Below, piece after piece: positions 18,128 to 41,870 of a stretch of 64,000 nt of DNA. The notes under the pieces are model-generated. The model was given only the letters and a program-made list of their open reading frames with translations. It was not told the origin of the DNA and made no database searches. This DNA is from Clostridia bacterium. GTDB lineage: Bacteria; Bacillota; Clostridia; Christensenellales; UBA1242. Position 1 is the stretch's first letter. Every line of letters begins with the position of its first letter. Location of the stretch: positions 42,052 to 106,051 of the forward strand of contig JAFQDL010000009.1 of the NCBI GenBank assembly GCA_017399265.1, in the 5' to 3' direction. Made by a program: the position numbers and the translations under genes.

Positions 18128-18991
18128 TTACATATCAAAATCATCAGTTGGTACATCGTTGTTTGTTGATACATCGTCATTGCTATGAGCCTTTGTCTCT
18201 CTAAACGCACTCTTTATTAAAGCCAGCTCTTCTGCACTCATTCCGCTTTCTTCCATAGATTTCAACCAAGCTTCCGCTTCTGATAATTGCTTTTCTCTTA
18301 TACTTGTACCTGTTTTTTCAATTTCGGCAATTTTTGTTTTATCTACAATCACACTAGGTACATAACTACTTGAATATTTTCCACTCCAATCATAAGGTTC
18401 ATTAGAAATTTCAAAAATATTTCCATTATTCATAACTTTATGAATTTCATCATATACAACTACACTCTCAGGATTAAGAACTTCTCTTGTCGCCCTCTCA
18501 CCAAGCGCAACTTCTGAAATTAACGATTTACCCTCTTTAGTTTCATATTCTCCTGTCTTCACTTGAGCCTTACCAATACGAACAAATTCATCAAATTTGT
18601 CTTCTGGAATCTTAGAGATTAATAAAGAGACCTTACTGCCAGCAACAAAATCATTTACATCAATTGGATTTTGCCAATCACTAACAACACCTTGCTCGCT
18701 AGCTGGCTGCTGAAGTAATTTAAACAAACTCTCTCTAATTTCCCCTAAGCCTGAACCATAATAGAAATAACAAGCACTGTCTTCTACTTCTTTAATAAAA
18801 CCATCTCTCAAGACTTTCTCAGTTGCAGTTAGTTTGTCCATAGTATCATTCTCAGACGAAAGAAAAGTCTCATGATTTTCTCCTGTGATGTTTTCACCTT
18901 TCATTTCGTCCCCAGAAATAAATCTTTCTATCATTCTCGCACTTCTCTCACCGCATGCCCTTACCAGATATATCATTTTTTCTTCTGTCAT
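18128..18991 (-). CDS. Hypothetical acidic protein
   Basis: 287-aa ORF with no recognised motif and an acidic C-terminal tail. Confidence 0.5.
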   Translation of the reverse strand: MTEEKMIYLVRACGERSARMIERFISGDEMKGENITGENHETFLSSENDTMDKLTATEKVLRDGFIKEVEDSACYFYYGSGLGEIRESLFKLLQQPASEQGVVSDWQNPIDVNDFVAGSKVSLLISKIPEDKFDEFVRIGKAQVKTGEYETKEGKSLISEVALGERATREVLNPESVVVYDEIHKVMNNGNIFEISNEPYDWSGKYSSSYVPSVIVDKTKIAEIEKTGTSIREKQLSEAEAWLKSMEESGMSAEELALIKSAFRETKAHSNDDVSTNNDVPTDDFDM

Positions 18992-19176
18992 ACTCCACCT
19001 ACACTAGTTTTTTAGCCAAAGTTCTTATTATAAATTATACCACAAAAAAACTCTAATATCAATTTATAATTTCTAACACACTTAAAAATTAAATAAGAAA
19101 TCAATTTTTCTTATATTTTTTTCAAATTTCGTTGACAATTGTGTAAATTTTACGCATAATACAATTGGAGGTTAAA

Positions 19177-19854
19177 ATGAACGTAAACGATTCCAGATAT
19201 GATAACCAAGGTCTACATGTAGTTTTGGCACTATTTACAGTAGACAAAGGAAGATTTAAAGTCTTATTAATAAAGAGAAAGAATGAACCATTCAAAAACA
19301 AATGGATACTAGTTGGTGGTTGTGCATACAACACCGAAACTGGCGAAGAAGCAATGGCAAGGGAATTAAAAGAAAAAACCACTCTACAGAATATCAATTT
19401 CGAGATGTTCAATGTTTTTACCAATCCAAATCGCTCCCCATTAAAGAGAATGATAGCTATTGGTTACATAGGAGTGAGTGACGCAAGCATAATTCAGAAT
19501 TTTAAACAAACAGAAAAAGCATCTGATGCTGACTGGTTTGAAATTGATCGTATTCCAGAACTGGGTTATGACCATAAAGAAATATTAACTGAGGCTATTG
19601 TAACTCTAAAGAACAAAATTTTTACATCAAATATTATGAAACGATTGTATCCAGGAAATTTTACATTGCCCGAATTACAAACAACATACGAAACAATATT
19701 GGGAATGAAATTAGATCGTAGAAATTTTAGAAAAAAATTACTTAGCTCAAATATTATCGAAGAAACCAATCAAACTATAAAAAATGAAAAAATAAAAACC
19801 ACAAAACTATACAAATTTACAAACAGCGATATTACTTTTAATTTATATAAATAG
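19177..19854 (+). CDS. NrtR-like protein: Nudix hydrolase domain fused to C-terminal winged-helix DNA-binding domain
   Basis: Start moved to ATG 19177 (RBS GGAGG). Nudix box GGCAYNTETGEEAMARELKEKT. C-terminus FTLPELQTTYETILGMKLDRRNFRKKL is typical of NrtR. Promoter TTGACA-17-CATAAT at 19132-19160. Confidence 0.75.
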   Translation: MNVNDSRYDNQGLHVVLALFTVDKGRFKVLLIKRKNEPFKNKWILVGGCAYNTETGEEAMARELKEKTTLQNINFEMFNVFTNPNRSPLKRMIAIGYIGVSDASIIQNFKQTEKASDADWFEIDRIPELGYDHKEILTEAIVTLKNKIFTSNIMKRLYPGNFTLPELQTTYETILGMKLDRRNFRKKLLSSNIIEETNQTIKNEKIKTTKLYKFTNSDITFNLYK

Positions 19855-19922
19855 CGAAAATATTTCGCTTTTTATAATAAATACAAATGTGTAAAAAATA
19901 CACATATATTAAGGAGATATAT

Positions 19923-20477
19923 ATGAAGAAAGCAATTGTTATAAATATTATGGGTGGGCCGGGAGCAGGAAAAAGCACATTGGCGAGCATGTTATTCGCC
20001 AATTTAAAAATGAACGGAGTGTCTTGCGAGTATGTAACAGAATATGCCAAAGATGTCGTATGGGAAAAAAGACTTAATCTGCTTAACGATCAATTATACA
20101 TTCTTAGTAAGCAATATAGAAGAATTAAGAGAGTGAGCAGCGAAGTCGATGTTGTTATTACAGATAGTCCTTTATTGCTAAGCTTGTACTATAATTCCCA
20201 AATTAAAGACATTGAAGATAGAATAACAGAACCTGTATTAAGATCGTTAATATTAGAGCTCAACAACAAGTTCAATAATTATTACTATTTTATAGAAAGG
20301 GCACACAAATACGAAACTAAAGGAAGATATCAAACAGAGGAAGAAAGCAATATAATATCTGCTGAGATAAAAAATATGCTTATCGACCTAAATATAGATT
20401 TTAAATCACTCCCTAGCGGAAAAGAAACAGTAAATAAAATTTTAAAAGAACTAAAAGGAATTATAAATGACAAATAA
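19923..20477 (+). CDS. P-loop NTPase/kinase-like protein (AAA_28/NadR-kinase-like, tentative)
   Basis: Start moved to ATG 19923 (RBS AAGGAGA). Walker A GGPGAGKST and Walker-B-like VVITDSP. Confidence 0.6.
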   Translation: MKKAIVINIMGGPGAGKSTLASMLFANLKMNGVSCEYVTEYAKDVVWEKRLNLLNDQLYILSKQYRRIKRVSSEVDVVITDSPLLLSLYYNSQIKDIEDRITEPVLRSLILELNNKFNNYYYFIERAHKYETKGRYQTEEESNIISAEIKNMLIDLNIDFKSLPSGKETVNKILKELKGIINDK

Positions 20478-20991
20478 GATTTGTTTTGTTGCCCCTAGTG
20501 GATTTGGAAAAAGTACTGCCATCAAAATTTTAAAAGAAAGGTATAACGTAATTAATATCAAAATTGCAAAACCTCTATACGATTTACAAGAATACTTTTA
20601 TAAAATCATAGAAAAAGATATTACCGGAGAACAAGATGGAGAACTGCTACAATTTTTAGGGACTAAAATAAGAAAAGAAGCTCCTTACTACTTGCTTAAC
20701 AAGTTTCAAGAAGTTCTTCAACAACATACAGATAGCAACTGTCTCATCACAAATGATGATTGCAGGCCACCTGATTATGAGACTTTAAAAAATTTAGGAT
20801 TTGTGTTTGTCAAAATAAATGGGTTTCGGAGAGATCGCAATGACCACTCTATCATTGACGCAAATTCCCAACTAGAATGGCAAAACGAAATATATTATGA
20901 TTATTGTGTAGACAACACAGATTCGTTAGCGGAATACAAAAAAAACTTAATTGCATTGGTGGATATAATCTTTAAGAAGGAGAGTTTGTGA
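20467..20991 (+). CDS. P-loop kinase-like protein (dNMP-kinase-like, tentative)
   Basis: Walker A APSGFGKST. Overlaps the upstream gene by 11 nt, consistent with translational coupling. Confidence 0.55.
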   Translation: MTNKICFVAPSGFGKSTAIKILKERYNVINIKIAKPLYDLQEYFYKIIEKDITGEQDGELLQFLGTKIRKEAPYYLLNKFQEVLQQHTDSNCLITNDDCRPPDYETLKNLGFVFVKINGFRRDRNDHSIIDANSQLEWQNEIYYDYCVDNTDSLAEYKKNLIALVDIIFKKESL

Positions 20992-21698
20992 TGCATCACA
21001 ATTTAACATTTAATAGAGTCCTTGGGCTGAAATTTTTACACGATCACTTCCCATATTACTTTTCTCCTAATAGAATCCAATTATACTTTGCCCATTCCAA
21101 AAAAGAACTACTAGAATTAAATATTGTAGATAATTTTGATACACTATTATTAAAACGAAGCGGAAACAATAAAACAGGCTTCTATAGTGATATTAGATGC
21201 AAAGACAATCGGTTTTTTAGAAATATAGAAGAATTAAAATGTGGAATTGGCCAGTTCAAAGATATGTTTGATTTCTGTATAGAATGTCACAAATTTAGAA
21301 ACGGAGAAAATTATTATAGCGACCGCCTTGCAATTGCACAATTTAGCACAGAAAATATATATGATCAATATGACACAATCAGTTTTATACCCTCTTTAAA
21401 ACCAGGAATATCAACAAGAGACAATCTGCCTTATCTAATGATTGATTATCCATACAATTCAGAAAGCCTTCCCCATATCAAGAAGCTAAACAACAAAGCA
21501 ATTAAAGAGAACCATTTTAGCGACGTTGATATCTCGTATCTAGCTAAAACAATTCACAGAATGATAGATAATATTCGTAATTATTTGTTAGATCTAAATA
21601 TCAGAAATTCATTTCAACTAATAATAAGAATTGACTCTTATCTTAACATTCTTCCAATAGATTTTAGAACGCCTGAAGCATGGTCAACACTAAAATAA
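20991..21698 (+). CDS. Hypothetical protein in the nucleotide-metabolism operon
   Basis: ATG overlaps the previous stop (TGATG), with RBS AAGGAGAG. No recognised motif. Confidence 0.55.
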   Translation: MHHNLTFNRVLGLKFLHDHFPYYFSPNRIQLYFAHSKKELLELNIVDNFDTLLLKRSGNNKTGFYSDIRCKDNRFFRNIEELKCGIGQFKDMFDFCIECHKFRNGENYYSDRLAIAQFSTENIYDQYDTISFIPSLKPGISTRDNLPYLMIDYPYNSESLPHIKKLNNKAIKENHFSDVDISYLAKTIHRMIDNIRNYLLDLNIRNSFQLIIRIDSYLNILPIDFRTPEAWSTLK

Positions 21699-21710
21699 AG
21701 GAATAATAGT

Positions 21711-22232
21711 ATGATATTAACCAAACAAGAAATATTAAGGCAAGTATCTAAAAGAAATATTACCATCTCCCCCTTTGATACAAACCTACTCAATCCCAAC
21801 AGCTACAACTATCGTTTGGATTACGAACTATTAGAATTTGATATCCCGTTAGATTGCAAAAAGAAAAGCATGCCCAAAAAAATCACTCTAACCGACGATG
21901 GCTACATCTTACAACCCAATAAGTTATATCTGGCCAACACCTATGAAAGCATTGGCAGTACTAAATTTGTAACACAATTAATCGGCAGAAGTTCTGTCGG
22001 GCGTCTTGGATTGTTTTTGCAAATTACAGCTCCACTAGGTCACGTAGGCACTAATCATAATTGGACTTTAGAATTAAAGGTCGTTCAACCTGTAAAAATT
22101 TATCCATTAATGAAAATAGGACAAGTCACTTTTTGGAAAATTAAGGGCAGAAAAAATAATAATTATATCAACGGCGAGTATAAAAAATATTCCAAAGCAC
22201 AAATTAGCAAATTATATAAGGAGTTATCATGA
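21711..22232 (+). CDS. dCTP deaminase/dUTPase-superfamily protein, paralog 1
   Basis: 173 aa. Dcd-type N-terminus (ILTKQEIL...ITISPF...NPNSYNYRL) and GRSSVGRLGLF. Retains the TLEL Glu but lacks the IDPGW-like segment. Confidence 0.8.
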   Translation: MILTKQEILRQVSKRNITISPFDTNLLNPNSYNYRLDYELLEFDIPLDCKKKSMPKKITLTDDGYILQPNKLYLANTYESIGSTKFVTQLIGRSSVGRLGLFLQITAPLGHVGTNHNWTLELKVVQPVKIYPLMKIGQVTFWKIKGRKNNNYINGEYKKYSKAQISKLYKELS

Positions 22233-22747
22233 TTCTTACCGGAACAGAAATATTTAAACAAGTACAAAAAAACAAAATAACAATTTCACCCTTTTGCAAG
22301 AAGAATGTTAATCCCAATAGTTATAATGTAGAATTGGGAGATTATTTAAAAGTTTATGAAGAAGAAATCCTTGATAGCAAAAAAAAATTAAAAACTATTA
22401 CCATTCCAATACCAGACGAAGGATTGGTACTACAACCAAACAAAATCTATCTAGGATACACTAAAGAAGTCATAGGTAGTAATCACTTTGTCCCAACACT
22501 CACAGGAAGAAGTTCTACCGGAAGATTAGGCTTGTTTGTCCAAATAACTGCAGACCTAGTAGATATAGGCTTCAAAGGCAACCTCACCTTTCAGTTACAC
22601 GCCGTTCAACCCCTGAGAATATACAAGGGAATGAAAATAGGTCAAATTATGTTTTGGAAAACCAAAGGAAAAATAAAATTATATAATGGCAAATATCAAA
22701 ACAGTGTTGGACCAAGAGAAAGCCAAGTCTGGAGAGATTTTAAATAA
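22229..22747 (+). CDS. dCTP deaminase/dUTPase-superfamily protein, paralog 2 (catalytic Glu position is Gln)
   Basis: 172 aa. GRSSTGRLGLF and VDIGFKG (IDPGW.G-like), but TFQL where Dcd has (T/V)LE(F/L). 4-nt overlap with paralog 1. Confidence 0.8.
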   Translation: MILTGTEIFKQVQKNKITISPFCKKNVNPNSYNVELGDYLKVYEEEILDSKKKLKTITIPIPDEGLVLQPNKIYLGYTKEVIGSNHFVPTLTGRSSTGRLGLFVQITADLVDIGFKGNLTFQLHAVQPLRIYKGMKIGQIMFWKTKGKIKLYNGKYQNSVGPRESQVWRDFK

Positions 22748-22781
22748 AAAAAGTGATAGACTTTTACCTATCACTTGATCA

Positions 22782-23468
22782 TCAATCAGCTCCACCTTGG
22801 TGTTGTGTAGACTTCTCTATCTTAAAACTAATAGTACCATTATAATTTGCATCGTTAGAAATGTTATCTATCTTAATACTATATTTAATAAGCCTACTAT
22901 TATTTGCAGGTAAACCTATCGCTCCTCCGTTAGCATATCCACTAATAATAACATTATCATCATCTTCTGGCTCATCATAATTAGGAGAAACAGTAATTGT
23001 AAATCCTGACTTATTTATGATCTCAAAATAATATATAACCGTAGAAGAAGTTGTAGAGCCGTCTGCAGCCGCAACTGGCCTTAATGTAACTGGAGCAAAA
23101 GATCGATGCTTAAACAACCACGATTTATTACTATTTATTTCAATACCATCACTATCATATGCTCTTATCTCATCAGTGGCCGAGTTTATATAACCATCGC
23201 CATCAGAGACTTGAACAATTTCCATTTTTGTAGAATCGATATTATTTAAATCTATAGTTTTGCTCTCGGCACTTTCAACATCAGCTATATGATGAATTGC
23301 ATATGCAGTAATATCGCATTCTACATTATCTGCGGTATATGTTACAGACACAGAATTTGTCATTTGTACCTGTTGCGCAACAAGAACTAGGCCAACTGCT
23401 AATCCTGCAATAACTAATACCAATACAGCAGCCATTACAGCCACAATTATTTTATATTTTTTTGTCAT
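22782..23468 (-). CDS. Membrane-anchored extracytoplasmic protein, unknown function
   Basis: N-terminal TM/signal anchor (IIVAVMAAVLVLVIAGLAVGLVLV). Upstream TTGACA promoter near 23521. Confidence 0.55.
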   Translation of the reverse strand: MTKKYKIIVAVMAAVLVLVIAGLAVGLVLVAQQVQMTNSVSVTYTADNVECDITAYAIHHIADVESAESKTIDLNNIDSTKMEIVQVSDGDGYINSATDEIRAYDSDGIEINSNKSWLFKHRSFAPVTLRPVAAADGSTTSSTVIYYFEIINKSGFTITVSPNYDEPEDDDNVIISGYANGGAIGLPANNSRLIKYSIKIDNISNDANYNGTISFKIEKSTQHQGGAD

Positions 23469-23646
23469 AATACTTCACCCATTTTATCTTTTAGAGTAGT
23501 ATACAACCACCCCTATATACTTTGTCAATAAAAACAATATATGTCTTTAAAATCAATATGGAAAAGTCATAAAAAATCAAAATTTTAAAATGATATTAGT
23601 TTAAAACTACTTTAATTAAAAAAACACCCCAAAGGAGTGTCTGATT

Positions 23647-23950
23647 AAGTGCTCTCGAAAGCATTCGGCCGTAGGTGTCGGGCAAGGTTCCCGACTACAC
23701 CTGGACTCTGTCCATGGGTTCGCGACGATGGTAATCGTCTATGTGTGTAACACATCAAGACCTGAGAGTAAAAAAAGTCGCACAAATTGCGACTTGTTTG
23801 GTGGTCTCTCAGGGATTCGGCCGCAGGTGTCGGGCAGGGGTCCCGACTACACCTGGACTCTGTCCACGGGTTCGTGACGATGGCAATCGTCTATGTGTGC
23901 AACACACTAAGACCTGAGAGTAAAAAAAGTCGCACAAATTACGACTTGTT
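23647..23950 (-). repeat. 2 x 152-bp tandem units downstream of tRNA-Lys. Each has a terminator hairpin, about 100 nt of GC-rich multi-hairpin sequence and a copy of tRNA nt C56-CCA.
   Basis: Proximal unit 23799-23950 begins on the plus strand with tggtggtctctcagggattcg, identical to the tRNA 3' end at 23951-23971. Distal unit 23647-23798 is roughly 90% identical, with a decayed tRNA fragment. Confidence 0.95.
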
Positions 23951-24026
23951 TGGTGGTCTCTCAGGGATTCGAACCCTGGACCCACTGATTAAGAGTCAGT
24001 TGCTCTACCAACTGAGCTAAGAGACC
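23951..24026 (-). tRNA. tRNA-Lys (anticodon CUU), CCA encoded
   Basis: Reverse complement GGTCTCTTAGCTCAGTTGGTAGAGCAACTGACTCTTAATCAGTGGGTCCAGGGTTCGAATCCCTGAGAGACCACCA folds as a canonical 76-nt cloverleaf. Confidence 0.92.
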
Positions 24027-26829: not shown

Positions 26830-29346
26830 TTACTCAGAGCATTCTTCAAAAGATCCCTCACCTGATTCAGACACTTCTTCTTCCTTCACAGTAGGAACAA
26901 CAGCAATTGCCACGATCTTGAATCCATCTTTGACTTTCATAAGTCTTACACCTTTAGTATTTCTACCTATTGTGTTTATCTCTGTTGCATTAAGTCTAAT
27001 TATTTGACCATCGTCACAAATTAACATCAAATCATCTTCGTCAGTTATTTGTTTTAAGCTTACAAGGCCACCAGTTTGCTCATTGAATACACCAGCCATT
27101 ACACCTGAGCCATATCTTCCTTGAGTTCTATAATCTTCTTGTCTGCTACGTTTTCCATAACCTTTTTCACTGACAGTTATAATATCATGACCTTCTTTTA
27201 CTAGAACAATATCAACTAAGTGTTCATTATCTCTTAATTTCATACCACGAACACCTATCGCATCTCTACCAACCAGTCTAATATCCGATTCTTTAAATCT
27301 TATACATTTACCATCGCTACTTGCTAAGATTATCTCGTCATTATCATTTGTAATGTATGCACCAATCAATGAATCTTCTTCACTTAATCTTATTGCTATC
27401 TTGCCACCTTTTCTGATACTTTCGAATTCAGCAAGTCTAGTCTTTTTGATAAGTCCAAGTTTTGTACAAAGTAGAAGGTTTCCTTGTTCTCTTTCTTCCT
27501 CTTTGATAGGGATAATAGTTGTTACTCTTTCGCCCGGATCAAGTTGTAAAATATTTACAATAGCTCTTCCTTTAGATTGTTTTTGAGCCTCTGGCACTTC
27601 AAAAGCCTTAATTGTATATACTTTACCTTTATCACTAAAGCAGAATAAATCATCGTGTGTATTTGTAACAAAAATGTTGTCTACAAAATCTTCCTCTTTA
27701 GTCTTGTGTCCACTTACACCCATGCCACCTCTATGCTGACTCTTGTATTCTGCAATAGGCATCCTCTTAATATATCCAGCATGTGTTAAAGTAATAGCAA
27801 CATCTTCTTTCTCGATAAGATCGGCAATATCAATATCACCATAATCAAAACTGATTTCAGATTTTCTAGGCACTGCATATTTTGACTTAATGTTAAGAAG
27901 ATTGTCTCTAATAATAGCAAGAACTTTCTCATCACTCTCTAGAATACTTCTCAATTCTTTAATTAATTCTTGAACTTCTTGAAGATCAGTTTTTAATTTT
28001 TCTACTTCAAGACCAGTCAATTTTTGCAATCTCATATCTAGAATTGCTTGTGCTTGTTTTTCAGACAATTCAAATAGTTTTGTCAATCTCTCAATAGCAT
28101 CTTGCTTATCTTCGGAAATTTTGATTTGTCTAATTACTTCGTCAATGTTTGCTTGAGCAATAACAAGACCTGCCAAAATATGCTCTTTTTGTTCTGCTTT
28201 TTCCAAATCAAATTTAGTTTCTCTAATCACTATATCTTTTTGGAAATCTAAGAAATGTTTAACAATCTCAAGCAAGTTACATACTTTTGGTGCCCCATTA
28301 ACAAGTGCAAGCATAATAATTCCGAAACTAATTTGTAGTTGTGTTTGCTTATATAGAGAATTAAGAACTACTTGCGCATTCGCATCTCTCTTTATCTCGA
28401 TTACAATACGCATTCCTTCTCTATCACTTTCTTCCTTTATATCAGAGATTCCTTCAATTCTCTTCGATTTTACCATATCAGCAATTTGCATAATAAGTTT
28501 TGCTTTATTTACTTGATATGGGATCTCTGTAATAATAATTCTGCTACGAGTACCATTATTATATTCCTCAATTTCTGCTCTTGCTCTGATATAGAATGTG
28601 CCTTTACCAGTTCTATAAGCATCTTTGATACCTTTCATGCCCAAGATATATCCTCTAGTTGGAAAATCTGGTGCAGGAATATATTTCATCAATTCTTCAA
28701 TGTCTAATTCAGAGTTTTCAATTAATGCTACAACCCCGTCAATTACCTCTCCTAAGTTGTGAGGAGGTATATTTGTTGCCATACCTACCGCTATACCATC
28801 AGATCCATTTACCAAAAGGTTTGGGAATCTAGCAGGAAGAACAACCGGTTGTTGTAATGTGTCATCAAAGTTAGGATAGAAATCTACTGTTTCTTTGTCT
28901 ATGGTACTAAGCATTTCGTTAGAAATCTTAGAAAGTCTTGCCTCAGTATAACGCATTGCAGCAGCACTATCACCGTCCACTGAACCAAAGTTTCCATGAC
29001 CTTCTACAAGTGGTGCATTGATTGTGAAGTCTTGAGCAAGTCTTACTAATGCATCATAGATTGCAGAGTCGCCGTGAGGGTGGTATTTACCCATAACATC
29101 ACCGACAATACGCGCACATTTCTTGAATGGTTTATCATTAAATAGGTTCAATTCTCCACCCATTGTGTAAAGAATTCTTCTATGTACCGGTTTCAAACCA
29201 TCACGAACATCTGGAATTGCACGAGAAACGTTTACCGCCATAGCATAAGCGATAAATGATTTTTCCAATTCGTCTTTTACTTTTACTTCTAATATTTTAT
29301 TGGAATTGCTTTTTTCAATAATTTGATCTATTTCGTTCTTATCCAT
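26830..29346 (-). CDS. gyrA: DNA gyrase subunit A
   Basis: 838 aa. AMRYTE active-site Tyr context, GKYHPHGD, and C-terminal beta-pinwheel repeats. Confidence 0.97.
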
Positions 29347-29362
29347 GATTCACCAAATTCCT

Positions 29363-31342
<1,980 letters not shown>

Positions 31343-31607: not shown

Positions 31608-32612
31608 CTACGCCTCTTTATCAAAAATTTTATCTATCTGATTTCTCAATACTTGTCGTCCATCTTGAATTAAACTTTCTGGTAGTTCTACAGGAATATA
31701 TTTATCAGCATTTTTTAATAAAACGTTTCTTCTATTTATTAAATTAACAAATGACTCACCATTATCATTTACCCTATTAGCCATATCCACTGAGATAGTG
31801 TCAGCGAAATTTCTAACAAAAGAAGATAGTTCATCATTGCCTGCTTTTGCCATATTTATTAGCATATTATTGCCATCAGGATCTACAACTTCTCTTTGAT
31901 CAGGATAGTTAACAAATATTGATACTGGAGTTTCGCTTGCGCCTCCTTTATAACATCTAGCACAAATCAAACCCATAGTTTCTCCCTCAGGAGTTAATGC
32001 AGTTCTCAATTTTTCATTTTTGGCAGCTATAAAACAATTAGTAGCAAACCTACTATCTTTAGCCATATAATGCCCAATATTTGATCCAAATTCATCTTTT
32101 ATCTCGTGAATAACTGGACTTTCTAAAATTTTGGAAACTACTAAACTTCTTTGCTTATCAACCGCTTGATGAGGAAATGGATAAGCAGAACTATCAGTCA
32201 TTCGAATAGCAAAATCATCTTCAGCAATCTTAATTGCTAAATAATCAAAAGCGCAATTTATTGCATAATGACCAAAAGAAATCTTTTCACTAGATCTTCT
32301 ATCTTCTGAATAATTATCAAAAAGACAGTACTTTATCTCAGGATTTTCATCAACAATTTTGCAAAGTTTTTCTTCTAATAAACGCTTATATGTATCATTC
32401 ATTACGTCTTTTTCTCGTCTATATAAGTTTACATTGTAATCTAAACAACAAAGCGCATCGCTTCGATACCTTTCAGTGTTATCTATAATTTTACCTAATA
32501 ATTCAAAAACTTCTGCTCGTCTCTTTACACTTAGTCTATTTGGACCTTTATATTCCATCCCTCTTTTTGATTTATAATCGTTACATTTTTTGATATCACT
32601 TAAAAAACTCAT
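31608..32612 (-). CDS. Ankyrin-repeat-like protein, paralog 1 of 3
   Basis: Start moved to MSFLSD (RBS GGAGGGG). Paralogous to the next two genes. ANK-like helices (PFPHQAVDKQRSLVVSKIL, GETMGLICA, GNNMLINMAKAGN). Own TTGACA-17-TAAAAT promoter. Confidence 0.5.
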   Translation of the reverse strand: MSFLSDIKKCNDYKSKRGMEYKGPNRLSVKRRAEVFELLGKIIDNTERYRSDALCCLDYNVNLYRREKDVMNDTYKRLLEEKLCKIVDENPEIKYCLFDNYSEDRRSSEKISFGHYAINCAFDYLAIKIAEDDFAIRMTDSSAYPFPHQAVDKQRSLVVSKILESPVIHEIKDEFGSNIGHYMAKDSRFATNCFIAAKNEKLRTALTPEGETMGLICARCYKGGASETPVSIFVNYPDQREVVDPDGNNMLINMAKAGNDELSSFVRNFADTISVDMANRVNDNGESFVNLINRRNVLLKNADKYIPVELPESLIQDGRQVLRNQIDKIFDKEA

Positions 32613-32722
32613 TTTCCCCTCCATAGTTTCTAATAATAACAAATATCAATTAATTTTAACACATCCTATATCAGTTGTCAATACCCTATTTCCCCAAAAT
32701 ACTACACATATGTAATTCCTGT

Positions 32723-33694
32723 TTACGCCTCTTTATCAAAAAAATTATCTACTTTTTTTCTCATTCTTTCTTCTTGAGATTCTAATAAGTTTTGAGGGAT
32801 AACAATTGGCACATAACCCTTATTGGTAGCATTCTTATTCATAATATCAGCCAAATCAACAAAACTTTCTCCCTTATCATTTACGATATTAACCATCTCA
32901 GGAGTCAAAATTTCAGGATGTTTAAATAAATTTCCCAATTCTTGATTATTAGCCTTTGCCATTGTCATGAGCATATTATTTCCACCATTATCTACAACTT
33001 CTCTCTGATCTGGATATGCTAAGAATGTAAAAATTGAAGCAACCTCATAATCCTTAATTCTACTAGAGTCTGCACATAACAATCCCATAGTTTTTCCTCT
33101 ATGATTTTTTGCAGTTCTTAACTTTTCATTTTTTAACGCATCTAGATATAACTTAACATCATGTTTATCCTTAGCAATTTCGTGACCAATATTTTCATTG
33201 TAATCGTTTAAAATCTCATGTATATCTGATCTATTTAACATTGCCTTTACAACATCATATCTTCCTTCATAAAGTGCAAAATGAGGCATAGGATATCGTA
33301 AATAATCATATTGTAGTCTTATTGCGTAATCATCTTCTGCTATCATTAATGCCAATTTATCAAAAGCGCAATTTATTGCATGATGACCTAAAAAATATTT
33401 ACCAATATCACAATTTCTAATATTAAAAAATTTACAGTACTTAAGCTCTGGATTTTCTTCTACCATTTTACAAATTTTATCTTCAAGCACTTTTTTATAC
33501 TTGTCATTTTTTGCTGAACCCCAACCATTTTTTTCTTCCATAGCATCAAATCTATAACTTTCTGTTGAATCCAAAATTTTGTCTATCATTTCAAAAACTT
33601 CAGCTTCTCTTTTTAGACTTATTTTCTTAGGGCCTTTGTACTCTAGACCTCTTATCTTTTTAAGTTGTAATCTCTTTTTTAACTTTTCAAACAT
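32723..33694 (-). CDS. Ankyrin-repeat-like protein, paralog 2 of 3
   Basis: 323 aa. PMPHFALYEGRYDVVKAML, GKTMGLLCA, GGNNMLMTMAKANN. Own TTGACA-17-TAGAAT promoter. Confidence 0.5.
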   Translation of the reverse strand: MFEKLKKRLQLKKIRGLEYKGPKKISLKREAEVFEMIDKILDSTESYRFDAMEEKNGWGSAKNDKYKKVLEDKICKMVEENPELKYCKFFNIRNCDIGKYFLGHHAINCAFDKLALMIAEDDYAIRLQYDYLRYPMPHFALYEGRYDVVKAMLNRSDIHEILNDYNENIGHEIAKDKHDVKLYLDALKNEKLRTAKNHRGKTMGLLCADSSRIKDYEVASIFTFLAYPDQREVVDNGGNNMLMTMAKANNQELGNLFKHPEILTPEMVNIVNDKGESFVDLADIMNKNATNKGYVPIVIPQNLLESQEERMRKKVDNFFDKEA

Positions 33695-33802
33695 TTTCTT
33701 CCCTCTTTTAAAATTACATAATTTTAATTAATATTTTTGCAATAATTAAAACCTTTTCTCAGTACAAAAATTCTATCACTGCCCATATTCCTTGTCAACA
33801 TC

Positions 33803-34783
33803 TTATTTTTCAAAATAATCTACTATTGATTCTCTCATTGACTCTTCTTCTGGCAGAATAAATTTCTTTGGAATTTCTAACGGAGTATATCCTTGAGTAT
33901 TTTTATTTGCATTATTCATATTTTCTACCAAACTTACAAAACTTTCTCCGTCTGCATTTACTCGGTTAATAATATTATGTGTTAAAATTTCTGGATTTTT
34001 TAATATATTTGCTAGTTCATAGTTGTTATTTTTAGCCATTGTCATCAATATATTATTTCCTCTTTTATCTACAGCGTCCCTTTGATCAAGACATGCAATA
34101 AACGTAAAGATTGAAGCAACTTTAAAATCTTGATCTGTTCGTCCTGCACAACAATGTCCCATAGTTCTTCCATAAAAATCTTTCGCAGTCCTTAATTTCT
34201 TGTTTTTTAGAGCCTCTAGATAGCATTTTACATCACTTGAATTATCCGCTATATAATGCCCAATATTTTCATTATAATTAAACAATATCTGGTGAATATT
34301 AGAATTCTCTAATGCTTTCATTACAACTTCTGATCTTTCCATTCTACATGCGTAATGCGGAAACGGCATTCCGCAAAACTGCTCAGTCATTCTTAACGCA
34401 TAATCGTCTTCTGCAATCTGAGTTGCCAACTTATCAAAAGCACAACGAACTATATAATGTCCGAATGGAATTTTTTCAGAAAAACCCTCATCAATAACAC
34501 AATATTTTAACTCCGGATTTTCTTCCACAATTTTACACAACTCTTCTTCCAGTACTTTTTTGTATTTATCCTGCTGAATAGTCGTTCTGTTTCTGTAATA
34601 ATTAGAGTTATCCCTCAAATGAATAGCATCAGATTTATATTTTCCTGTTTTAGTTAATATCTTGTCTAACAACTCAAATATTTCAACTTCTCTTTTAAGA
34701 CTTATCTTGATTGGTCCATCATATTTAAATTTTCGTTTCATTTTGTATTCTATTTTCTTTTTTAGATCACTAAAAATACTCAT
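33803..34783 (-). CDS. Ankyrin-repeat-like protein, paralog 3 of 3
   Basis: Start moved to MSIFSD (RBS GAGGGA), matching the paralog N-termini. Own TTGACA-17-TAAAAT promoter near 34850. Confidence 0.5.
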   Translation of the reverse strand: MSIFSDLKKKIEYKMKRKFKYDGPIKISLKREVEIFELLDKILTKTGKYKSDAIHLRDNSNYYRNRTTIQQDKYKKVLEEELCKIVEENPELKYCVIDEGFSEKIPFGHYIVRCAFDKLATQIAEDDYALRMTEQFCGMPFPHYACRMERSEVVMKALENSNIHQILFNYNENIGHYIADNSSDVKCYLEALKNKKLRTAKDFYGRTMGHCCAGRTDQDFKVASIFTFIACLDQRDAVDKRGNNILMTMAKNNNYELANILKNPEILTHNIINRVNADGESFVSLVENMNNANKNTQGYTPLEIPKKFILPEEESMRESIVDYFEK

Positions 34784-35089
34784 TATTCCCTCGTTTTTTA
34801 TTAATACTATTCTGCTATTATTAAACATAATTTTAACACACGCCACGCACCCTGTCAATACCTAAAAATTTTTAAAACAATTCAACTTTTAGCAAAAATT
34901 AAACATAATTAAACTAACAGCAGAAAAATGTTTTTAATTTGCTTTGTATAATGCATTTTTTTTGATAAAATCTAAGTAGAAAAATGTGTAAGTTTTTTTA
35001 CATTTTTTGTAAAAAAAGCAAAACTCGAAATGTAACTAAATTTAGCCATTTTTCATAAATATTACAAATATTAAAATTTAAGGAATTTT

Positions 35090-36175
35090 ATGCATATCAA
35101 ATCTATTGAATTAAACAACTTTAGAAACTACGATAACGAAGTTGTTTACTTAGACAAAAATCTTAATGTCGTTGTTGGAAATAACGCTCAAGGCAAAACC
35201 AATCTACTTGAGAGTATTTATTTAGCATCTATTGGAAAAAGTCCAAGAACTAGCAAAGAAAAAGAACTTATCAGATGGAACTCTACTTTTGCTAAAGTAA
35301 CAATGGAATATGTAAAACACTCTAATATTCACAAAAAACTTGAGATTTTTCTATCCAACAACCAGAATAAATCTATCAAAATTAATGGCTATTATCTAAA
35401 GAAAATTAGTCAACTTTTGGGTGAAATTTATACAGTATATTTTAGCCCAGATGAGTTAAATATTGTTAAAAATGGACCTAACGAAAGACGTAAATTTTTA
35501 GATATAGCAATATGCCAATTTGATAAAAATTATTTTTACAATCTTAACAAATATTTCGAAGTTTTAGACCAAAGAAATAGACTTCTTAAGTCCTCTAACA
35601 ATTCAAAAACAATTGCGGACACACTTGCAATTTGGGACGAACAGCTAGCAATTTTTGGTGCAAAAATAGTATATACTAGACTTAAATTTGTTAATATTTT
35701 ATCAAGTATCGCTAGTCAAATACATAAGGAATTAACAGAAAATAAAGAAGTTTTAAGATTAGAATACACTGGTGTAAATGACGTAACAGAAGATAATATC
35801 AAGGCAAAATTACTACAAGGACTTATTGATTGCAGAGACAAAGATATATCTTTAGGTTATACTAATGTAGGCCCTCAAAGAGACGATATCAAACTAATTG
35901 TTAATGAGATAGATATACGTTCTTTTGGTTCACAAGGACAGCAGAGAACAGTTGCGCTATCCTTAAAACTAGCAGAACTAGAAGTTATAAAAAGCGAAAC
36001 TCACGAGACTCCTATTCTACTGCTTGATGATGTATTGAGCGAGTTAGATAACGACAGACAACTAAAATTAATTAGCAAAGTAAAAGAGTATCAAACCATT
36101 ATAACGTGTACTGAATTTAAGCACAATATAGATTATAATGAGATAAAAATCAATGATGGCAAATTAATAAAATAA
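35090..36175 (+). CDS. recF: DNA replication/repair protein RecF
   Basis: 361 aa. Walker A GNNAQGKTN, signature SQGQQRT, Walker B LLLDDV. Confidence 0.93.
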   Translation: MHIKSIELNNFRNYDNEVVYLDKNLNVVVGNNAQGKTNLLESIYLASIGKSPRTSKEKELIRWNSTFAKVTMEYVKHSNIHKKLEIFLSNNQNKSIKINGYYLKKISQLLGEIYTVYFSPDELNIVKNGPNERRKFLDIAICQFDKNYFYNLNKYFEVLDQRNRLLKSSNNSKTIADTLAIWDEQLAIFGAKIVYTRLKFVNILSSIASQIHKELTENKEVLRLEYTGVNDVTEDNIKAKLLQGLIDCRDKDISLGYTNVGPQRDDIKLIVNEIDIRSFGSQGQQRTVALSLKLAELEVIKSETHETPILLLDDVLSELDNDRQLKLISKVKEYQTIITCTEFKHNIDYNEIKINDGKLIK

Positions 36176-36184
36176 TAATTTGAA

Positions 36185-36208
36185 CCCCTACTATTGTAGG
36201 GGTTTTTT
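36185..36208 (+). terminator. Rho-independent terminator after recF
   Basis: CCCCTAC-tatt-GTAGGGG followed by T6. Confidence 0.85.
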
Positions 36209-36318
36209 ATTCACAAATTTTTAAAAAATGTGGAAAAGCATAACACACTTAAATCAACTCAAAATATCTATATTTTATAAAATTCTGCCAGATATCCACC
36301 CCAAAATTATCAAATTCC

Positions 36319-36347
36319 TTGACAATTATTTTCTCTTTTAGTATACT
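36319..36347 (+). promoter_or_regulatory. dnaA promoter
   Basis: TTGACA (36319-36324), 17 nt spacer, TATACT (36342-36347). Confidence 0.7.
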
Positions 36348-36478
36348 ATATATGTAAGATTAATTTATGGCTAAATAAAGCGGAAATTTGCAAATTGTAT
36401 GTTTTGTAAATTAGTCTTTAAAATCGTTAAAATTTGTAATTTTAATGATTAAAAAAATAAATTATAGATGAGGATGAA

Positions 36479-37819: not shown

Positions 37820-37830
37820 ATGCCACTTTT

Positions 37831-38030
37831 TGTGGATATGTGGATAACTTATCCCCACTTATCCACCGACTTATACACAATTATCCTCACTATATGTAGT
37901 AGATTAGTTGACGAAAAATCGTTAACTTTAACACAATATCTTGTGGTTTTGGGAAGTTATACACATTTCCACAGAGCCCATTATATATATTAATATTAAA
38001 AAAAATAAATAAAATATAATAGGAGAGCGC
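37831..38030. other. oriC module: DnaA-box cluster followed by AT-rich unwinding tract
   Basis: Boxes versus TTATCCACA: 37831 (rc, 1 mismatch), 37839-37847 (rc, perfect), 37849 TTATCCCCA, 37859 TTATCCACC, 37871 TTATACACA, 37881 TTATCCTCA, 37957 TTATACACA, 37965 ATTTCCACA. These are followed by an essentially pure A/T run at about 37981-38025. Confidence 0.8.
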
Positions 38031-38033
38031 ATT

Positions 38034-40415: not shown

Positions 40416-40421
40416 GTGTTT

Positions 40422-41780: not shown

Positions 41781-41870
41781 AGAAAAATCAATAGCGATAT
41801 TGATTTTTTTTATGTATCGTTATATAATAATATATATGTATTACTATAATCATAATTTAAGGAAATAAAT

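What the first reader, a model, noticed from the sequence alone, without database searches (positions are those of the whole stretch)
19132..22747. Six-gene operon: NrtR-like Nudix regulator, two P-loop kinase-like proteins, an unknown protein and two tandem dCTP-deaminase-family proteins
Seen directly. One strong promoter (TTGACA-17-CATAAT, 19132-19160) is flanked by two CAATTG palindromes (19136-19141 and 19162-19167). Six same-strand genes follow, with overlapping or near-abutting stops and starts (20467/20477, 20991, 22229/22232). A hairpin follows the last gene. Established knowledge: NrtR proteins regulate NAD/ADP-ribose genes, and kinase-domain/dCTP-deaminase fusions are a described anti-phage dNTP-depletion defence. 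Inference: this may be a split, multi-gene relative of that defence, or a dedicated deoxypyrimidine or modified-nucleotide pathway under Nudix-type sensing. The gene combination is not one I recognise as a standard housekeeping operon.
Basis: partly seen in the sequence, partly recalled or inferred. Interest (0 to 1): 0.65.

Follow-up and report, generated by a model that had tools for sequence, protein, structure and literature searches.

The report
Repressor-controlled pyrimidine nucleotide conversion operon
An uncultured gut Clostridia chromosome carries a conserved, repressor-controlled operon with nucleotide kinases, an orphan ATP-grasp enzyme and two specialised copies of a dCTP-deaminase-type enzyme; its chemistry is only partly predictable and it is not a relative of the known dCTP-deaminase phage defence.

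Summary
In detail: six co-oriented, tightly coupled genes follow a TTGACA-17-CATAAT promoter at 19132-19160.

- **Regulation.** It is a conserved palindrome, TGYGTAAA-N-TTTACRCA, with the NrtR core GT-N7-AC. It occurs twice: inside the promoter, and after a terminator-like hairpin ahead of gene 2.
- **The unknown 236-aa protein.** It models as a minimal ATP-grasp enzyme from an orphan family.
- **The second P-loop protein.** It models as a T4-type dNMP-kinase fold.
- **The two DCD proteins.** They form an old, specialised pair. One keeps the deaminase Glu but lost the hydrolytic Asp. The other keeps the Asp but has Gln for the Glu.
- **Wider distribution.** In gut Bacilli the same regulator, kinase and DCD pair flank a MoaA/viperin-like radical-SAM enzyme where the ATP-grasp sits here. 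More distant kinase-DCD(-radical-SAM) clusters occur in phage-like contigs and next to STAND NTPases.
- **Known defence.** The published kinase-dCTP-deaminase defence uses a zinc cytidine-deaminase fold, so the two are not homologous.

Best reading, at moderate confidence: an inducible pathway that converts or modifies pyrimidine deoxynucleotides. Its physiological role is unresolved among housekeeping dUMP supply, modified-nucleotide synthesis and dCTP depletion.

The parts
19132..19160 (+). Promoter P1: -35 TTGACA (19132-19137), 17-nt spacer, -10 CATAAT (19155-19160)
   Evidence: Consensus scan gives 11 of 12 matches. The same -35, spacer and -10 are conserved in 13 orthologous loci, including Bacilli.
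19140..19156 (.). Operator O1: palindrome TGTGTAAA-T-TTTACGCA (core GT-N7-AC), filling the promoter spacer and reaching the -10
   Evidence: Exact match to the pattern derived from orthologous promoters. The GT-N7-AC core is the published common NrtR motif (PMC2330246).
19177..19854 (+). g1: NrtR-family regulator (Nudix-like domain plus winged helix), 225 aa
   Evidence: Pfam NrtR_WHD 1e-19 and NUDIX 6e-14. Best solved relatives are AraR 5BS6 at 9e-30 and NrtR 3GZ5 at 1.5e-16. It is 70-82% identical in orthologous clusters.
19853..19876 (+). Terminator-like hairpin AGCGAAA-ATA-TTTCGCT plus T-run, directly after the g1 stop codon
   Evidence: Terminator scan. An equivalent hairpin plus T-run follows g1 in most orthologous loci.
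19888..19904 (.). Operator O2: TGTGTAAAAAATACACA, just upstream of the g2 RBS
   Evidence: Pattern match with 2 mismatches. A site at the same position is present in every orthologous locus, including those without an adjacent g1.
19923..20477 (+). g2: accessory P-loop kinase (AAA_28 type), 184 aa
   Evidence: Pfam AAA_28 3e-12. PHROG 2107, annotated 'thymidylate kinase', 2e-22. Present in only some orthologous clusters, and placed after the DCD pair in L008 and in Bacilli.
20467..20991 (+). g3: core P-loop kinase with a T4 dNMP-kinase-like fold, 174 aa
   Evidence: PHROG 139 dNMP kinase 2.5e-13. AF2 model pLDDT 93, with best PDB fold match T4 dNMP kinase 1DEK (E 5e-5, TMq 0.64). 208 homologs, none with a Pfam family. 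Invariant Walker A Lys and NDDCR motif.
20991..21698 (+). g4: orphan minimal ATP-grasp-fold enzyme, 235 aa
   Evidence: No hit in Pfam, NCBIfam, PHROGs or PADLOC. AF2 pLDDT 87.9, pTM 0.86. All 50 listed PDB Foldseek hits are ATP-grasp enzymes, and viral hits with E below 0.002 are TTL-like or ATP-grasp where named. 52 homologs. A profile search of 1.84 billion representatives found no remote relatives.
21711..22232 (+). g5: DCD-fold protein, 'H/E type'. Keeps the deaminase Glu (WTLE). The motif-III Asp is His and the sugar-stacking Phe is Thr.
   Evidence: Pfam DCD 1e-30. TIGR02274 scores 82.8, below its cut-off of 92.8. Alignment to M. tuberculosis Dcd:dut. The motif GH.GT.H.WTLE is invariant in 16 orthologs.
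22229..22747 (+). g6: DCD-fold protein, 'D/Q type'. Keeps the motif-III Asp and Phe (VDIGF). The deaminase Glu is Gln (TFQL).
   Evidence: Pfam DCD 4e-38. Alignments to 4XJC, 2QXX and the M. jannaschii chain 3GF0, which carries Gln at this site. Gln is present in all 120 best homologs. g6 is the most conserved protein of the cluster, at 75-86%.
22751..22776 (.). Hairpin between the convergent genes g6 and 22782-23468. The T-run is on the minus strand.

Best explanation
**What it is.** The locus is a chromosomal, vertically inherited operon that an NrtR-family repressor keeps switched off. It encodes a short pathway acting on pyrimidine (deoxy)nucleotides.

**Regulation.**
- Shown by comparison: g1 recognises two conserved GT-N7-AC palindromes. 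O1 lies inside its own promoter. O2 lies between a terminator-like hairpin and the RBS of the enzyme genes.
- Inferred: a small-molecule ligand of the Nudix-like domain releases repression. The ligand could be a nucleotide, ADP-ribose or a sugar.

**Enzymes (all inferred from fold and residues).**
- g3 is a T4-dNMP-kinase-like kinase. Together with the accessory kinase g2, it phosphorylates pyrimidine (d)NMPs.
- g5 keeps the deaminase Glu but lacks the water-activating Asp. It deaminates a cytosine nucleoside triphosphate, dCTP or a sugar-altered analogue, to the uracil form.
- g6 keeps the Asp and the deoxyribose-stacking Phe but has Gln for the Glu. It removes pyrophosphate to give the monophosphate.
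- Together g5 and g6 split the two activities of a bifunctional Dcd:dut enzyme.
- g4, the orphan ATP-grasp enzyme, carries out an ATP-dependent phosphorylation or ligation on one of these nucleotide intermediates. It occupies the operon slot that sister clusters give to a MoaA/viperin-like radical-SAM enzyme.

**Net output.** Flux runs from dC-type to dU-type nucleotides, possibly giving a modified pyrimidine nucleotide.
For: **Regulator and operators.**
- Domain calls.
- O1 and O2 are conserved in all orthologous loci, from Clostridia to Bacilli.
- The motif core matches published NrtR sites.

**DCD pair.**
- Residue mapping against M. tuberculosis, B. halodurans and M. jannaschii enzymes.
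- The substitutions are invariant in 16 orthologs and in 120 homologs.
- The motif-III Asp is required for hydrolysis in the dUTPase superfamily: D83N retains 0.0002 of wild-type efficiency (PMC5519681).

**Kinases.**
- PHROG and fold matches.
- Thymidylate-kinase-type genes recur beside g3 homologs.

**ATP-grasp.**

**Functional coupling.**
- Overlapping stops and starts.
- The core g3-g4-g5-g6 is invariant in all g4-bearing loci, which include 14 species-representative genomes.
- The same regulator, kinase and DCD pair occur with a radical-SAM enzyme in the g4 slot.
- A kinase-DCD(-rSAM) association holds across 34 metagenomic loci, and L053 carries a DCD-rSAM fusion.

**Vertical inheritance and constraint.** Between the window and L008, GyrA and TrpRS are 62% identical. 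g1 is 71%, g5 68% and g6 79% identical. Both loci lie near trpS-gyrA.
Against: - There are no biochemical data.
- E. coli Dcd keeps the motif-III Asp yet has no dUTPase activity (my own knowledge). Retaining the Asp therefore does not prove that g6 hydrolyses anything.
- Gln in place of the Glu could make g6 a non-catalytic partner.
- g5's motif III is so remodelled (Asp to His, Phe to Thr, Gly to His) that its substrate may not be dCTP.
- The ATP-grasp assignment rests on a predicted structure with modest TM-scores (0.4-0.54). The substrate is unknown.
- In one very common gut organism the DCD pair occurs without a kinase, ATP-grasp or rSAM. The pair can therefore work alone.
- I could not inspect the rest of the genome for dut, dcd, comEB, thyA/thyX, tmk or ndk.
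- Tight double-operator repression fits poorly with an essential housekeeping step.
Confidence: 0.42

Rival explanations
1. This is plain housekeeping dUMP/dTTP supply. The g5/g6 pair is simply the lineage's split Dcd:dut enzyme. g2 and g3 act as thymidylate or dNMP kinases. g4 has an unrelated or auxiliary role, for example standing in for NDP kinase. No unusual nucleotide is made.
For: - The DCD pair occurs alone inside a mixed housekeeping operon in a very common gut organism.
- The cluster lies among aminoacyl-tRNA synthetase, gyrase and ribosomal genes.
- Its proteins are at least as conserved as GyrA and TrpRS.
- Tmk-type kinases accompany g3 homologs.
- GC content is the same as the surrounding chromosome.
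Against: - It does not explain the tightly coupled ATP-grasp or radical-SAM enzyme, nor the DCD-rSAM fusion.
- It does not explain the remodelled sugar pocket of g5.
- Repression through two operators and a terminator is odd for an essential step.
- Distant homologs sit in phage-like and STAND-linked contexts.
Confidence: 0.25
2. This is an inducible dNTP-depletion defence, a functional but not homologous analogue of the kinase-deaminase systems. Infection raises a ligand such as ADP-ribose, g1 releases the operators, and the kinases together with g5 and g6 drain the dC pool into dUMP, starving phage replication.
For: - Distant g3-like kinase plus DCD pairs directly follow STAND (NB-ARC/NACHT-TPR) NTPases, with the STAND gene's end overlapping the kinase gene's start (L049, L051).
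- The published defence needs both a kinase and a deaminase domain.
- NrtR proteins respond to ADP-ribose.
- The operon appears to be tightly repressed.
Against: - The deaminase fold differs from that of the known system, and no PADLOC model matches.
- The window holds no defence island or mobile-element context.
- Sequence divergence is slow, at housekeeping rates, and the position near trpS-gyrA is conserved.
- Transcriptional induction is slow compared with a phage replication cycle (inference).
Confidence: 0.15
3. g6 is a catalytically dead regulatory subunit. It binds nucleotides in a heterotrimer or hexamer with g5 and provides allosteric control, for example dTTP or dUTP feedback. In that case only deamination occurs, not pyrophosphate removal.
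For: - The catalytic Glu is Gln in every homolog examined.
- g6 is the most conserved protein of the cluster.
- The g5 and g6 genes are always adjacent and overlap, which suggests co-assembly.
Against: - g6 keeps the GRSSxGR phosphate motif, the motif-III Asp and Phe, and the C-terminal lid motif GKYQ..GP..S. A pure regulator would not need the water-activating Asp.
- Canonical dUTPases have no Glu at this position (my own knowledge of motif III).
Confidence: 0.12
4. This is a classic NrtR regulon for NAD or nicotinamide-riboside salvage, with g2 (AAA_28, the NadR kinase-domain family) acting as a ribosylnicotinamide kinase.
For: - AAA_28 is the NadR-type kinase family, and g2 gives a weak TIGR01526 match at 0.004.
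- NrtR regulons usually concern NAD metabolism.
Against: - g2 is missing from most orthologous clusters, whereas g3-g6 are invariant.
- The operon contains no NAD biosynthesis or transport gene.
- g2 matches a phage 'thymidylate kinase' family far better, at 2e-22.
Confidence: 0.04

Closest known systems
[quoted passage not shown]
   Same: - Same trimeric DCD/dUTPase fold.
- Same GRSSxGR and motif-III framework.
- Same predicted net reaction, dCTP to dUMP plus PPi.
   Different: - Here the two catalytic signatures sit on two adjacent paralogs that are 49% identical. g5 has the Glu without the Asp. g6 has the Asp without the Glu.
- g5 also lacks the sugar-stacking aromatic residue.
- Whether the two proteins form a heteromer is unknown.
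Phage T4 deoxynucleotide logic (gp1 dNMP kinase with the gp56 dCTPase/dUTPase and a base-modifying enzyme)
   Same: - A T4-gp1-like kinase fold for g3.
- The same combination: an NTP-to-NMP enzyme, an enzyme that could modify the nucleotide, and a kinase to re-phosphorylate it.
   Different: - g3 falls below the Pfam DNMK threshold and forms a family of its own.
- The NTP-to-NMP enzyme has the DCD fold, not the fold of gp56.
- The candidate modifier is an ATP-grasp or radical-SAM enzyme, not a ThyA homolog.
- The cluster is chromosomal and repressor-controlled.
Anti-phage kinase-dCTP deaminase (Tal et al.; also DcdV)
   Same: A P-loop kinase module is combined with an enzyme that deaminates cytosine deoxynucleotides. 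The possible outcome, loss of dCTP, is the same.
   Different: - That system is a single fused protein with a zinc-dependent cytidine-deaminase fold, found in defence islands.
- This one has separate genes, the DCD/dUTPase fold, no PADLOC match and a housekeeping context.
NrtR / AraR family of Nudix-related transcriptional regulators
   Same: - Nudix-like domain plus winged helix.
- Palindromic operator with a GT-N7-AC core that overlaps the promoter.
- Autoregulation.
   Different: - The regulated genes are DCD-fold enzymes, nucleotide kinases and an ATP-grasp enzyme, not NAD or pentose genes.
- The effector is unknown.
- g1 scores far below the NCBIfam equivalog cut-off (126.6 against 400).
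Prokaryotic viperin plus nucleotide kinase (pVip) modules. Relevant to the radical-SAM sister clusters.
   Same: A nucleotide kinase is coupled to a MoaA/viperin-like radical-SAM enzyme. That pairing suggests a modified nucleoside triphosphate as the product.
   Different: - The sister-cluster radical-SAM proteins score far below the viperin cut-off (34.6 against 180).
- They always come with DCD-fold proteins.
- The window's own cluster has no radical-SAM enzyme at all.

Membership tests
NrtR family (Nudix-related transcriptional regulators) | N-terminal Nudix-like domain plus C-terminal winged-helix DNA-binding domain | tested here: met
   PF00293 6e-14 and PF21906 1e-19. Full-length alignments to AraR 5BS6 and NrtR 3GZ5.
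NrtR family (Nudix-related transcriptional regulators) | Palindromic operator with a GT-N7-AC core in the promoter of target genes | tested here: met
   O1 (19140-19156) and O2 (19888-19904) are conserved across loci. The motif definition comes from PMC2330246.
NrtR family (Nudix-related transcriptional regulators) | Regulon of NAD synthesis or salvage genes, with ADP-ribose as the effector (ADPR-responsive NrtR equivalog NF050029) | tested here: not met
   The operon has no NAD genes. NF050029 scores 126.6 bits against a cut-off of 400. g1 is closer to the arabinose-sensing AraR. The effector itself cannot be tested with these tools.
dCTP deaminase (Dcd, TIGR02274 / Pfam DCD) | DCD/dUTPase-fold domain with the GRSSxGR motif | tested here: met
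   PF22769 gives 1e-30 for g5 and 4e-38 for g6. The motif is present in both proteins.
dCTP deaminase (Dcd, TIGR02274 / Pfam DCD) | Catalytic Glu (E. coli E138, M. tuberculosis E129, M. jannaschii E145) | tested here: not met
   Met in g5 (WTLE). Not met in g6, which has Gln (TFQL) in all 120 homologs. g6 nevertheless passes the TIGR02274 cut-off (109.8 against 92.8), so it would be auto-annotated as a dCTP deaminase.
Bifunctional Dcd:dut / dUTPase superfamily hydrolysis | Motif-III Asp that positions the hydrolytic water | tested here: not met
   g5 has His at this position, invariant in orthologs. g6 keeps the Asp. The role of the Asp is taken from PMC5519681. No single protein in the cluster carries both signatures.
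Anti-phage kinase-dCTP deaminase (PADLOC dCTPdeaminase; Tal et al.) | Zinc-dependent cytidine-deaminase domain fused to an N-terminal kinase domain | tested here: not met
   g5 and g6 have the DCD fold and match no PADLOC model at E up to 0.1. The defence protein's architecture is taken from the paper.
Anti-phage kinase-dCTP deaminase (PADLOC dCTPdeaminase; Tal et al.) | Location among other defence genes or mobile elements | tested here: not met
   Neighbours are ileS, trpS, tRNA-Lys, radC, gyrA and gyrB. GC content equals that of the surrounding chromosome.
ATP-grasp superfamily (g4) | ATP-grasp fold | tested here: met
   Predicted structure with pLDDT 87.9. All 50 listed PDB hits are ATP-grasp enzymes, with E down to 1e-5 and TMq 0.4-0.54. 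Viral hits with E below 0.002 are likewise TTL-like or ATP-grasp where named. This rests on a model, not a solved structure.
ATP-grasp superfamily (g4) | Membership of a described ATP-grasp sequence family, and canonical ATP/Mg ligands | tested here: inconclusive
   No Pfam, NCBIfam or PHROG hit. No PDB sequence hit. Invariant K55, E98, D215, D224 and R226 are candidate ligands, but only by eye.
T4-type dNMP kinase (Pfam DNMK PF21448) (g3) | Family-level sequence match and fold | tested here: inconclusive
   Pfam DNMK scores 12.7 bits against a cut-off of 27.1. PHROG 139 gives 2.5e-13. The best fold match is 1DEK at TMq 0.64, but dephospho-CoA and phosphomevalonate kinases score close behind. 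The Walker A motif is present.
Prokaryotic viperin (considered for the radical-SAM proteins of sister clusters) | NF038283 / TIGR04278 score above the cut-off | tested here: not met
   Scores of 29-35 bits against a cut-off of 180. MoaA models score slightly better but also fall far below their cut-offs.

The most novel reading that the evidence does not exclude
The window's cluster would be one lineage's version of a widespread, undescribed system for modifying pyrimidine nucleotides.

- The core is a g3-family kinase plus a DCD-fold enzyme.
- A variable 'chemistry' enzyme joins them: a MoaA/viperin-like radical-SAM enzyme in most lineages, and an orphan ATP-grasp enzyme here.
- The system would make a non-canonical pyrimidine (deoxy)nucleotide.
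- Phages would use it for their DNA. STAND-linked bacterial systems would use it as an immune effector. Gut Firmicutes would have domesticated it under an NrtR-type nucleotide sensor.
- The g5/g6 split would adapt the deaminase to a sugar- or base-modified substrate.
Probability: 0.3. Interest if true: 0.8.

Novelty: new variant of a known kind. Interest (0 to 1): 0.6.

Why it matters
**If the split g5/g6 reading is right.**
- It is a clear natural case of a bifunctional nucleotide enzyme resolved into two specialised paralogs.
- It exposes an annotation trap. g6-type proteins pass the curated 'dCTP deaminase' threshold although they lack the catalytic Glu.

**What else the locus adds.**
- A new target set for NrtR-type regulators: deoxynucleotide enzymes rather than NAD or pentose genes.
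- Two protein families with no described relatives: the g3 kinase and the g4 ATP-grasp enzyme.

**If the wider triad makes a modified nucleotide.** The kinase, radical-SAM or ATP-grasp, and DCD combination would open a new branch of nucleotide chemistry. It would bear on phage DNA modification, on bacterial immunity through nucleotide analogues, and on the physiology of abundant uncultured gut Firmicutes.

Tried and rejected
- **PADLOC.** Scans of all six proteins, and of the STAND-linked distant clusters, gave no defence model for the DCD, kinase or ATP-grasp proteins.
- **GenBank phages.** tblastn found nothing for g3 or g4. g6 matched phage DCDs at no more than 35% identity.
- **Remote homology for g4.**
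  - A profile HMM search of 1.84 billion representatives found only its own family.
  - A PDB sequence search gave spurious coiled-coil matches.
  - hhalign against the sister radical-SAM protein, a PPDK_N-type ATP-grasp enzyme and the 227/262-aa proteins of distant clusters gave nothing significant.
  - A short VxGxxT(R/P) resemblance to the PPDK_N loop remains only a lead.
- **NDP-kinase idea.** The C-terminal extension of the 400-aa radical-SAM proteins looked NDP-kinase-like by eye (LLKPD...NLVHAPD). hhalign gave E 0.039 and the PDB search found nothing, so this is not established.
- **CAATTG as operator.** Rejected: the sites are not conserved and not enriched.
- **More operators.** Elsewhere in the window only 3-mismatch matches appear, which is consistent with chance.
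- **Literature.** Searches for the gene combination found no description.

Full report
**1. The observation**

The window is a roughly 31% GC bacterial chromosome segment close to the replication origin. It carries gyrB and gyrA (26830-31297), recF, dnaA and dnaN (35090-39134), a 15% GC tract at 39-40 kb, and then mnmE and mnmG. Identical copies of the locus occur on metagenome contigs, and NCBI names the source a 'Clostridia bacterium' MAG.

- g2 and g3 overlap by 11 nt.
- The g3 stop and the g4 start share one base.
- g4 and g5 are 12 nt apart.
- g5 and g6 overlap as ATGA.

Profile searches confirm the domain calls:
- g1 has a NUDIX domain plus the NrtR winged helix.
- g2 is AAA_28.
- g3 is a P-loop protein that matches PHROG 'dNMP kinase' at 2.5e-13.
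- g4 matches nothing.
- g5 and g6 are DCD proteins.

The flanking genes are ileS, trpS, two ORFs with no family, tRNA-Lys, an RNHCP-domain gene, radC and a hexapeptide transferase. There are no mobile-element or defence genes.

**2. Regulation**

I aligned the 130 nt upstream of g1 from 13 orthologous loci, including a Bacilli MAG. The alignment shows an almost invariant TTGACA-AATG[CT]GTAAA-W-TTTAC[GA]CAT-AAT.

- The conserved operator is the palindrome TGYGTAAA-N-TTTACRCA. It fills the spacer and reaches the -10 (window 19140-19156).
- Its core, GT-N7-AC, is what Rodionov et al. reported as the common core of NrtR sites (PMC2330246).
- The two CAATTG hexamers are absent from the other promoters and are not enriched in the window.

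A second copy of the operator (19888-19904) lies between a terminator-like hairpin just after the g1 stop (19853-19869 plus a T-run) and the RBS of g2. The order hairpin, operator, RBS recurs in every orthologous locus. It recurs even where g1 is not adjacent. The 19887 ATG lies inside this operator, so g2 most likely starts at 19923.

The unit is thus an autoregulated g1 followed by a separately gated enzyme block, g2-g6.

Among solved structures, g1 is closer to the arabinose-sensing AraR of Bacteroides (9e-30) than to the ADP-ribose-sensing Shewanella NrtR (1.5e-16). It also scores far below the NCBIfam equivalog cut-off. ADP-ribose should therefore not be assumed as the ligand.

**3. The unknown protein g4**

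- It has 52 close homologs, all about 235 aa and all from uncultured gut Clostridia/Eubacteriales MAGs (rabbit, roe deer, mouse). These cover 14 GTDB species.
- A profile search of 1.84 billion representative proteins found no remote relatives.
- An AlphaFold2 model built on the family alignment is confident (pLDDT 87.9, pTM 0.86).
- All 50 listed Foldseek hits in the PDB are ATP-grasp enzymes: tubulin-tyrosine ligase, D-Ala-D-Ala ligase, carbamoyl-phosphate synthetase, PurK, L-amino-acid ligase, synapsin and biotin carboxylase. E-values reach 1e-5 and TM-scores are 0.4-0.54.
- Viral structure hits with E below 0.002 are likewise TTL-like or ATP-grasp proteins where named.

g4 is therefore a minimal, highly divergent ATP-grasp enzyme without the usual N-terminal domain. 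Many of its invariant residues are Arg, Lys or Asn. That would suit phosphorylated substrates, but this is inference.

**4. The kinases**

*g3*
- Its family has 208 members, none with a Pfam assignment.
- The model (pLDDT 93) matches T4 dNMP kinase 1DEK best (E 5e-5, TMq 0.64). Phosphomevalonate and dephospho-CoA kinases follow closely.
- In an IMG/VR viral contig, a g3 homolog sits in the order g3-like, thymidylate kinase, canonical DCD. In L042 the order is Tmk-like, g3-like, then a non-canonical NTP pyrophosphatase.

*g2*
- It is accessory: absent from most orthologous clusters, and placed after the DCD pair in L008 and in Bacilli.

**5. The DCD pair**

I used residue-by-residue alignment to M. 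tuberculosis Dcd:dut, the B. halodurans Dcd chain (4XJC) and M. jannaschii DCD-DUT.

| Position (M. tuberculosis numbering) | g5 | g6 |
|---|---|---|
| GRSSxGR phosphate motif | kept | kept |
| Base-pocket Ala (A115) | kept | kept |
| Deaminase Glu (E129) | kept (WTLE) | Gln (TFQL) |
| Motif-III Asp (D119) | His | kept (VDIGF) |
| Aromatic at Asp+3 (F122) | Thr | kept |
| Following Gly (G124) | His | kept |

- g6 aligns marginally better to the M. jannaschii chain 3GF0, which carries Gln at this site, than to the other M. jannaschii chains listed.
- From my own knowledge, the catalytic Glu is E138 in E. coli and E145 in M. jannaschii, and the aromatic at Asp+3 is the residue that stacks on deoxyribose in dUTPases.
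- In the dUTPase superfamily the motif-III Asp positions the hydrolytic water. D83N in M. tuberculosis Dut leaves 0.0002 of wild-type efficiency (PMC5519681).
- Both sets of substitutions are invariant in 16 orthologous clusters, and the Gln is present in all 120 best g6 homologs.

The simplest reading is sub-functionalisation of a bifunctional Dcd:dut ancestor into a deaminase-type paralog (g5) and a pyrophosphatase-type paralog (g6). The altered sugar pocket of g5 leaves room for a substrate other than plain dCTP.

g6 exceeds the curated TIGR02274 'dCTP deaminase' cut-off despite lacking the Glu. That is an annotation hazard.

**6. Comparative context**

Across all loci that carry g4, the core g3-g4-g5-g6 is invariant, and g1 is usually upstream.

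Between the window and L008:
- GyrA and TrpRS are 62% identical.
- g1 is 71%, g5 68%, g6 79%, g3 57% and g4 54% identical.
- Both clusters lie near trpS-gyrA.

This pattern indicates long vertical residence under strong constraint.

The g5/g6-type pair is much more widespread than g4:
- In gut Bacilli MAGs the cluster reads NrtR (55% identical to g1), g3 homolog (55%), a 400-aa radical-SAM protein, DCD(H/E), DCD(D/Q) and a histidine phosphatase, sometimes followed by an AAA_28 protein. Housekeeping genes flank it.
- In another lineage a 245-aa radical-SAM protein fills the same slot.
- In a very common gut organism the pair follows only a SAM methyltransferase.
- The radical-SAM proteins resemble MoaA and viperin only in the SAM-binding half, and they score far below every curated cut-off.

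The ATP-grasp enzyme of the window's lineage therefore occupies, in situ, the slot of a radical-SAM enzyme. g4 and those radical-SAM proteins share no sequence similarity.

A metagenome scan with the g3 profile returned 34 loci. Where the contig is long enough, a DCD-fold gene is almost always adjacent, and a member of the same radical-SAM family often is too. Specific cases:
- L053 encodes a DCD fused to a radical-SAM-like domain that has lost its cluster cysteines.
- L044, L052 and L032 add a PPDK_N (ATP-grasp) plus PEP-utilizer enzyme.
- The marine contigs L061-L067 combine GMP-reductase-like, DCD, radical-SAM and g3-like genes. L062, L063 and L067 also carry a Dam methylase, an ADP-ribosylglycohydrolase and an NAD-dependent ligase, which looks phage-like.
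- In L049 and L051 a STAND NTPase (NB-ARC/NACHT plus TPR) overlaps the start of a g3-like gene, which is followed by a canonical DCD.

These distant DCDs keep both the Asp and the Glu. Only the gut Firmicutes versions have the split pair.

**7. Comparison with the known defence**

The defensive dCTP deaminase of Tal et al. is a single 576-aa protein. It has an N-terminal kinase domain and a C-terminal zinc-dependent cytosine-deaminase domain. That fold differs from the fold of g5 and g6, PADLOC models do not match, and the genomic context is not a defence island. Membership is therefore rejected.

A functional analogy, kinase plus cytosine-nucleotide deaminase, remains conceivable. The STAND-linked distant relatives give it some support.

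**8. Interpretation**

*Shown*
- The gene structure.
- The regulator family and its two operators.
- The ATP-grasp and dNMP-kinase-like folds, by prediction.
- The complementary catalytic signatures of g5 and g6.
- The conserved coupling of kinase, DCD and a variable enzyme.

*Inferred*
- The direction of flux: kinases push upward, g5 deaminates, and g6 removes pyrophosphate.
- The ATP-dependent step by g4 on a nucleotide.
- Ligand-dependent derepression.

*Weighting*
- An inducible pathway that converts or modifies pyrimidine (deoxy)nucleotides is most likely, at about 0.4.
- Plain housekeeping dUMP/dTTP supply comes next, at about 0.25.
- dCTP-depletion defence stands at about 0.15.
- A regulatory pseudoenzyme role for g6 stands at about 0.12 and is not exclusive of the others.
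- NAD salvage is unlikely.

*Could not be done here*
- Inspect the rest of the genome for dut, dcd, thyA and tmk.
- Model the g5:g6 complex.

*Literature*
Four literature searches for this gene combination found no description.

Noticed in passing
window 23617-23920 (minus-strand features), next to tRNA-Lys at 23951-24026: A 152-nt unit is repeated twice in tandem (82% identical). By eye, each copy repeats the last ~16 nt of tRNA-Lys, its terminator hairpin and a GC-rich stretch of about 100 nt, in a 31% GC genome. No Rfam family matches. The predicted fold is not unusually stable (z -1.4). It could be a remnant of integration at the tRNA or an undescribed small RNA.
   Followed up: partly
L049 2136-5709 and L051 2241-5670 (metagenome contigs): A STAND NTPase (NB-ARC/NACHT plus TPR, 784-836 aa) overlaps the start of a g3-like kinase gene, which is followed by a canonical DCD-fold gene. 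This looks like a candidate defence system with a DCD-fold effector. No PADLOC model matches the kinase or the DCD.
   Followed up: partly
L053 86-1231: A single 381-aa ORF fuses a canonical DCD domain to a domain of the cluster's radical-SAM family. That domain keeps the GG(N/E)(D/E)P SAM motif but lacks the CX3CX2C cysteines. The fusion is strong evidence that the two proteins work together.
   Followed up: partly
L028 4983-5477, L030 8208-8717, L031 8214-8702: The 400-aa radical-SAM proteins of the Bacilli clusters carry a C-terminal extension of about 160 aa with conserved LLKPD and NLVHAPD motifs. By eye these recall NDP kinase. hhalign gives only E 0.039, and Pfam and PDB give nothing.
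   Followed up: partly
L062 371-10941 (also L063, L067; partly L060, L061, L064): Marine contigs of 32-37 kb carry, in order, a Dam methylase, an ADP-ribosylglycohydrolase, a GMP-reductase-like gene, a DCD, a radical-SAM gene, a g3-like kinase, an NAD-dependent DNA ligase, a methyltransferase and an HD protein. This looks like a phage-like nucleotide-metabolism block containing the same triad.
   Followed up: partly
window 31608-34858, minus strand: Three consecutive ORFs of 344, 323 and 351 aa lie between gyrB and recF. None has a Pfam family.
   Followed up: no
window 35090-43727: The origin region reads recF, dnaA, dnaN, then a tract of about 1 kb at 15% GC (39001-40000), then mnmE and mnmG. 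The cumulative GC skew turns at about 34-35 kb. The likely oriC is the AT-rich tract after dnaN.
   Followed up: no
window 18128-18991 (minus strand) and 22782-23468 (minus strand): The two genes that directly flank the operon (287 aa and 228 aa) have no Pfam family. By tblastn they were found only in contigs of this same organism, not in the orthologous loci of related species.
   Followed up: partly
L030 10326-11462 (also L036, L039): In Bacilli clusters the AAA_28 kinase is fused to a further ~190 aa that no Pfam model recognises. By eye it looked CYTH-like, but this was not confirmed.
   Followed up: partly
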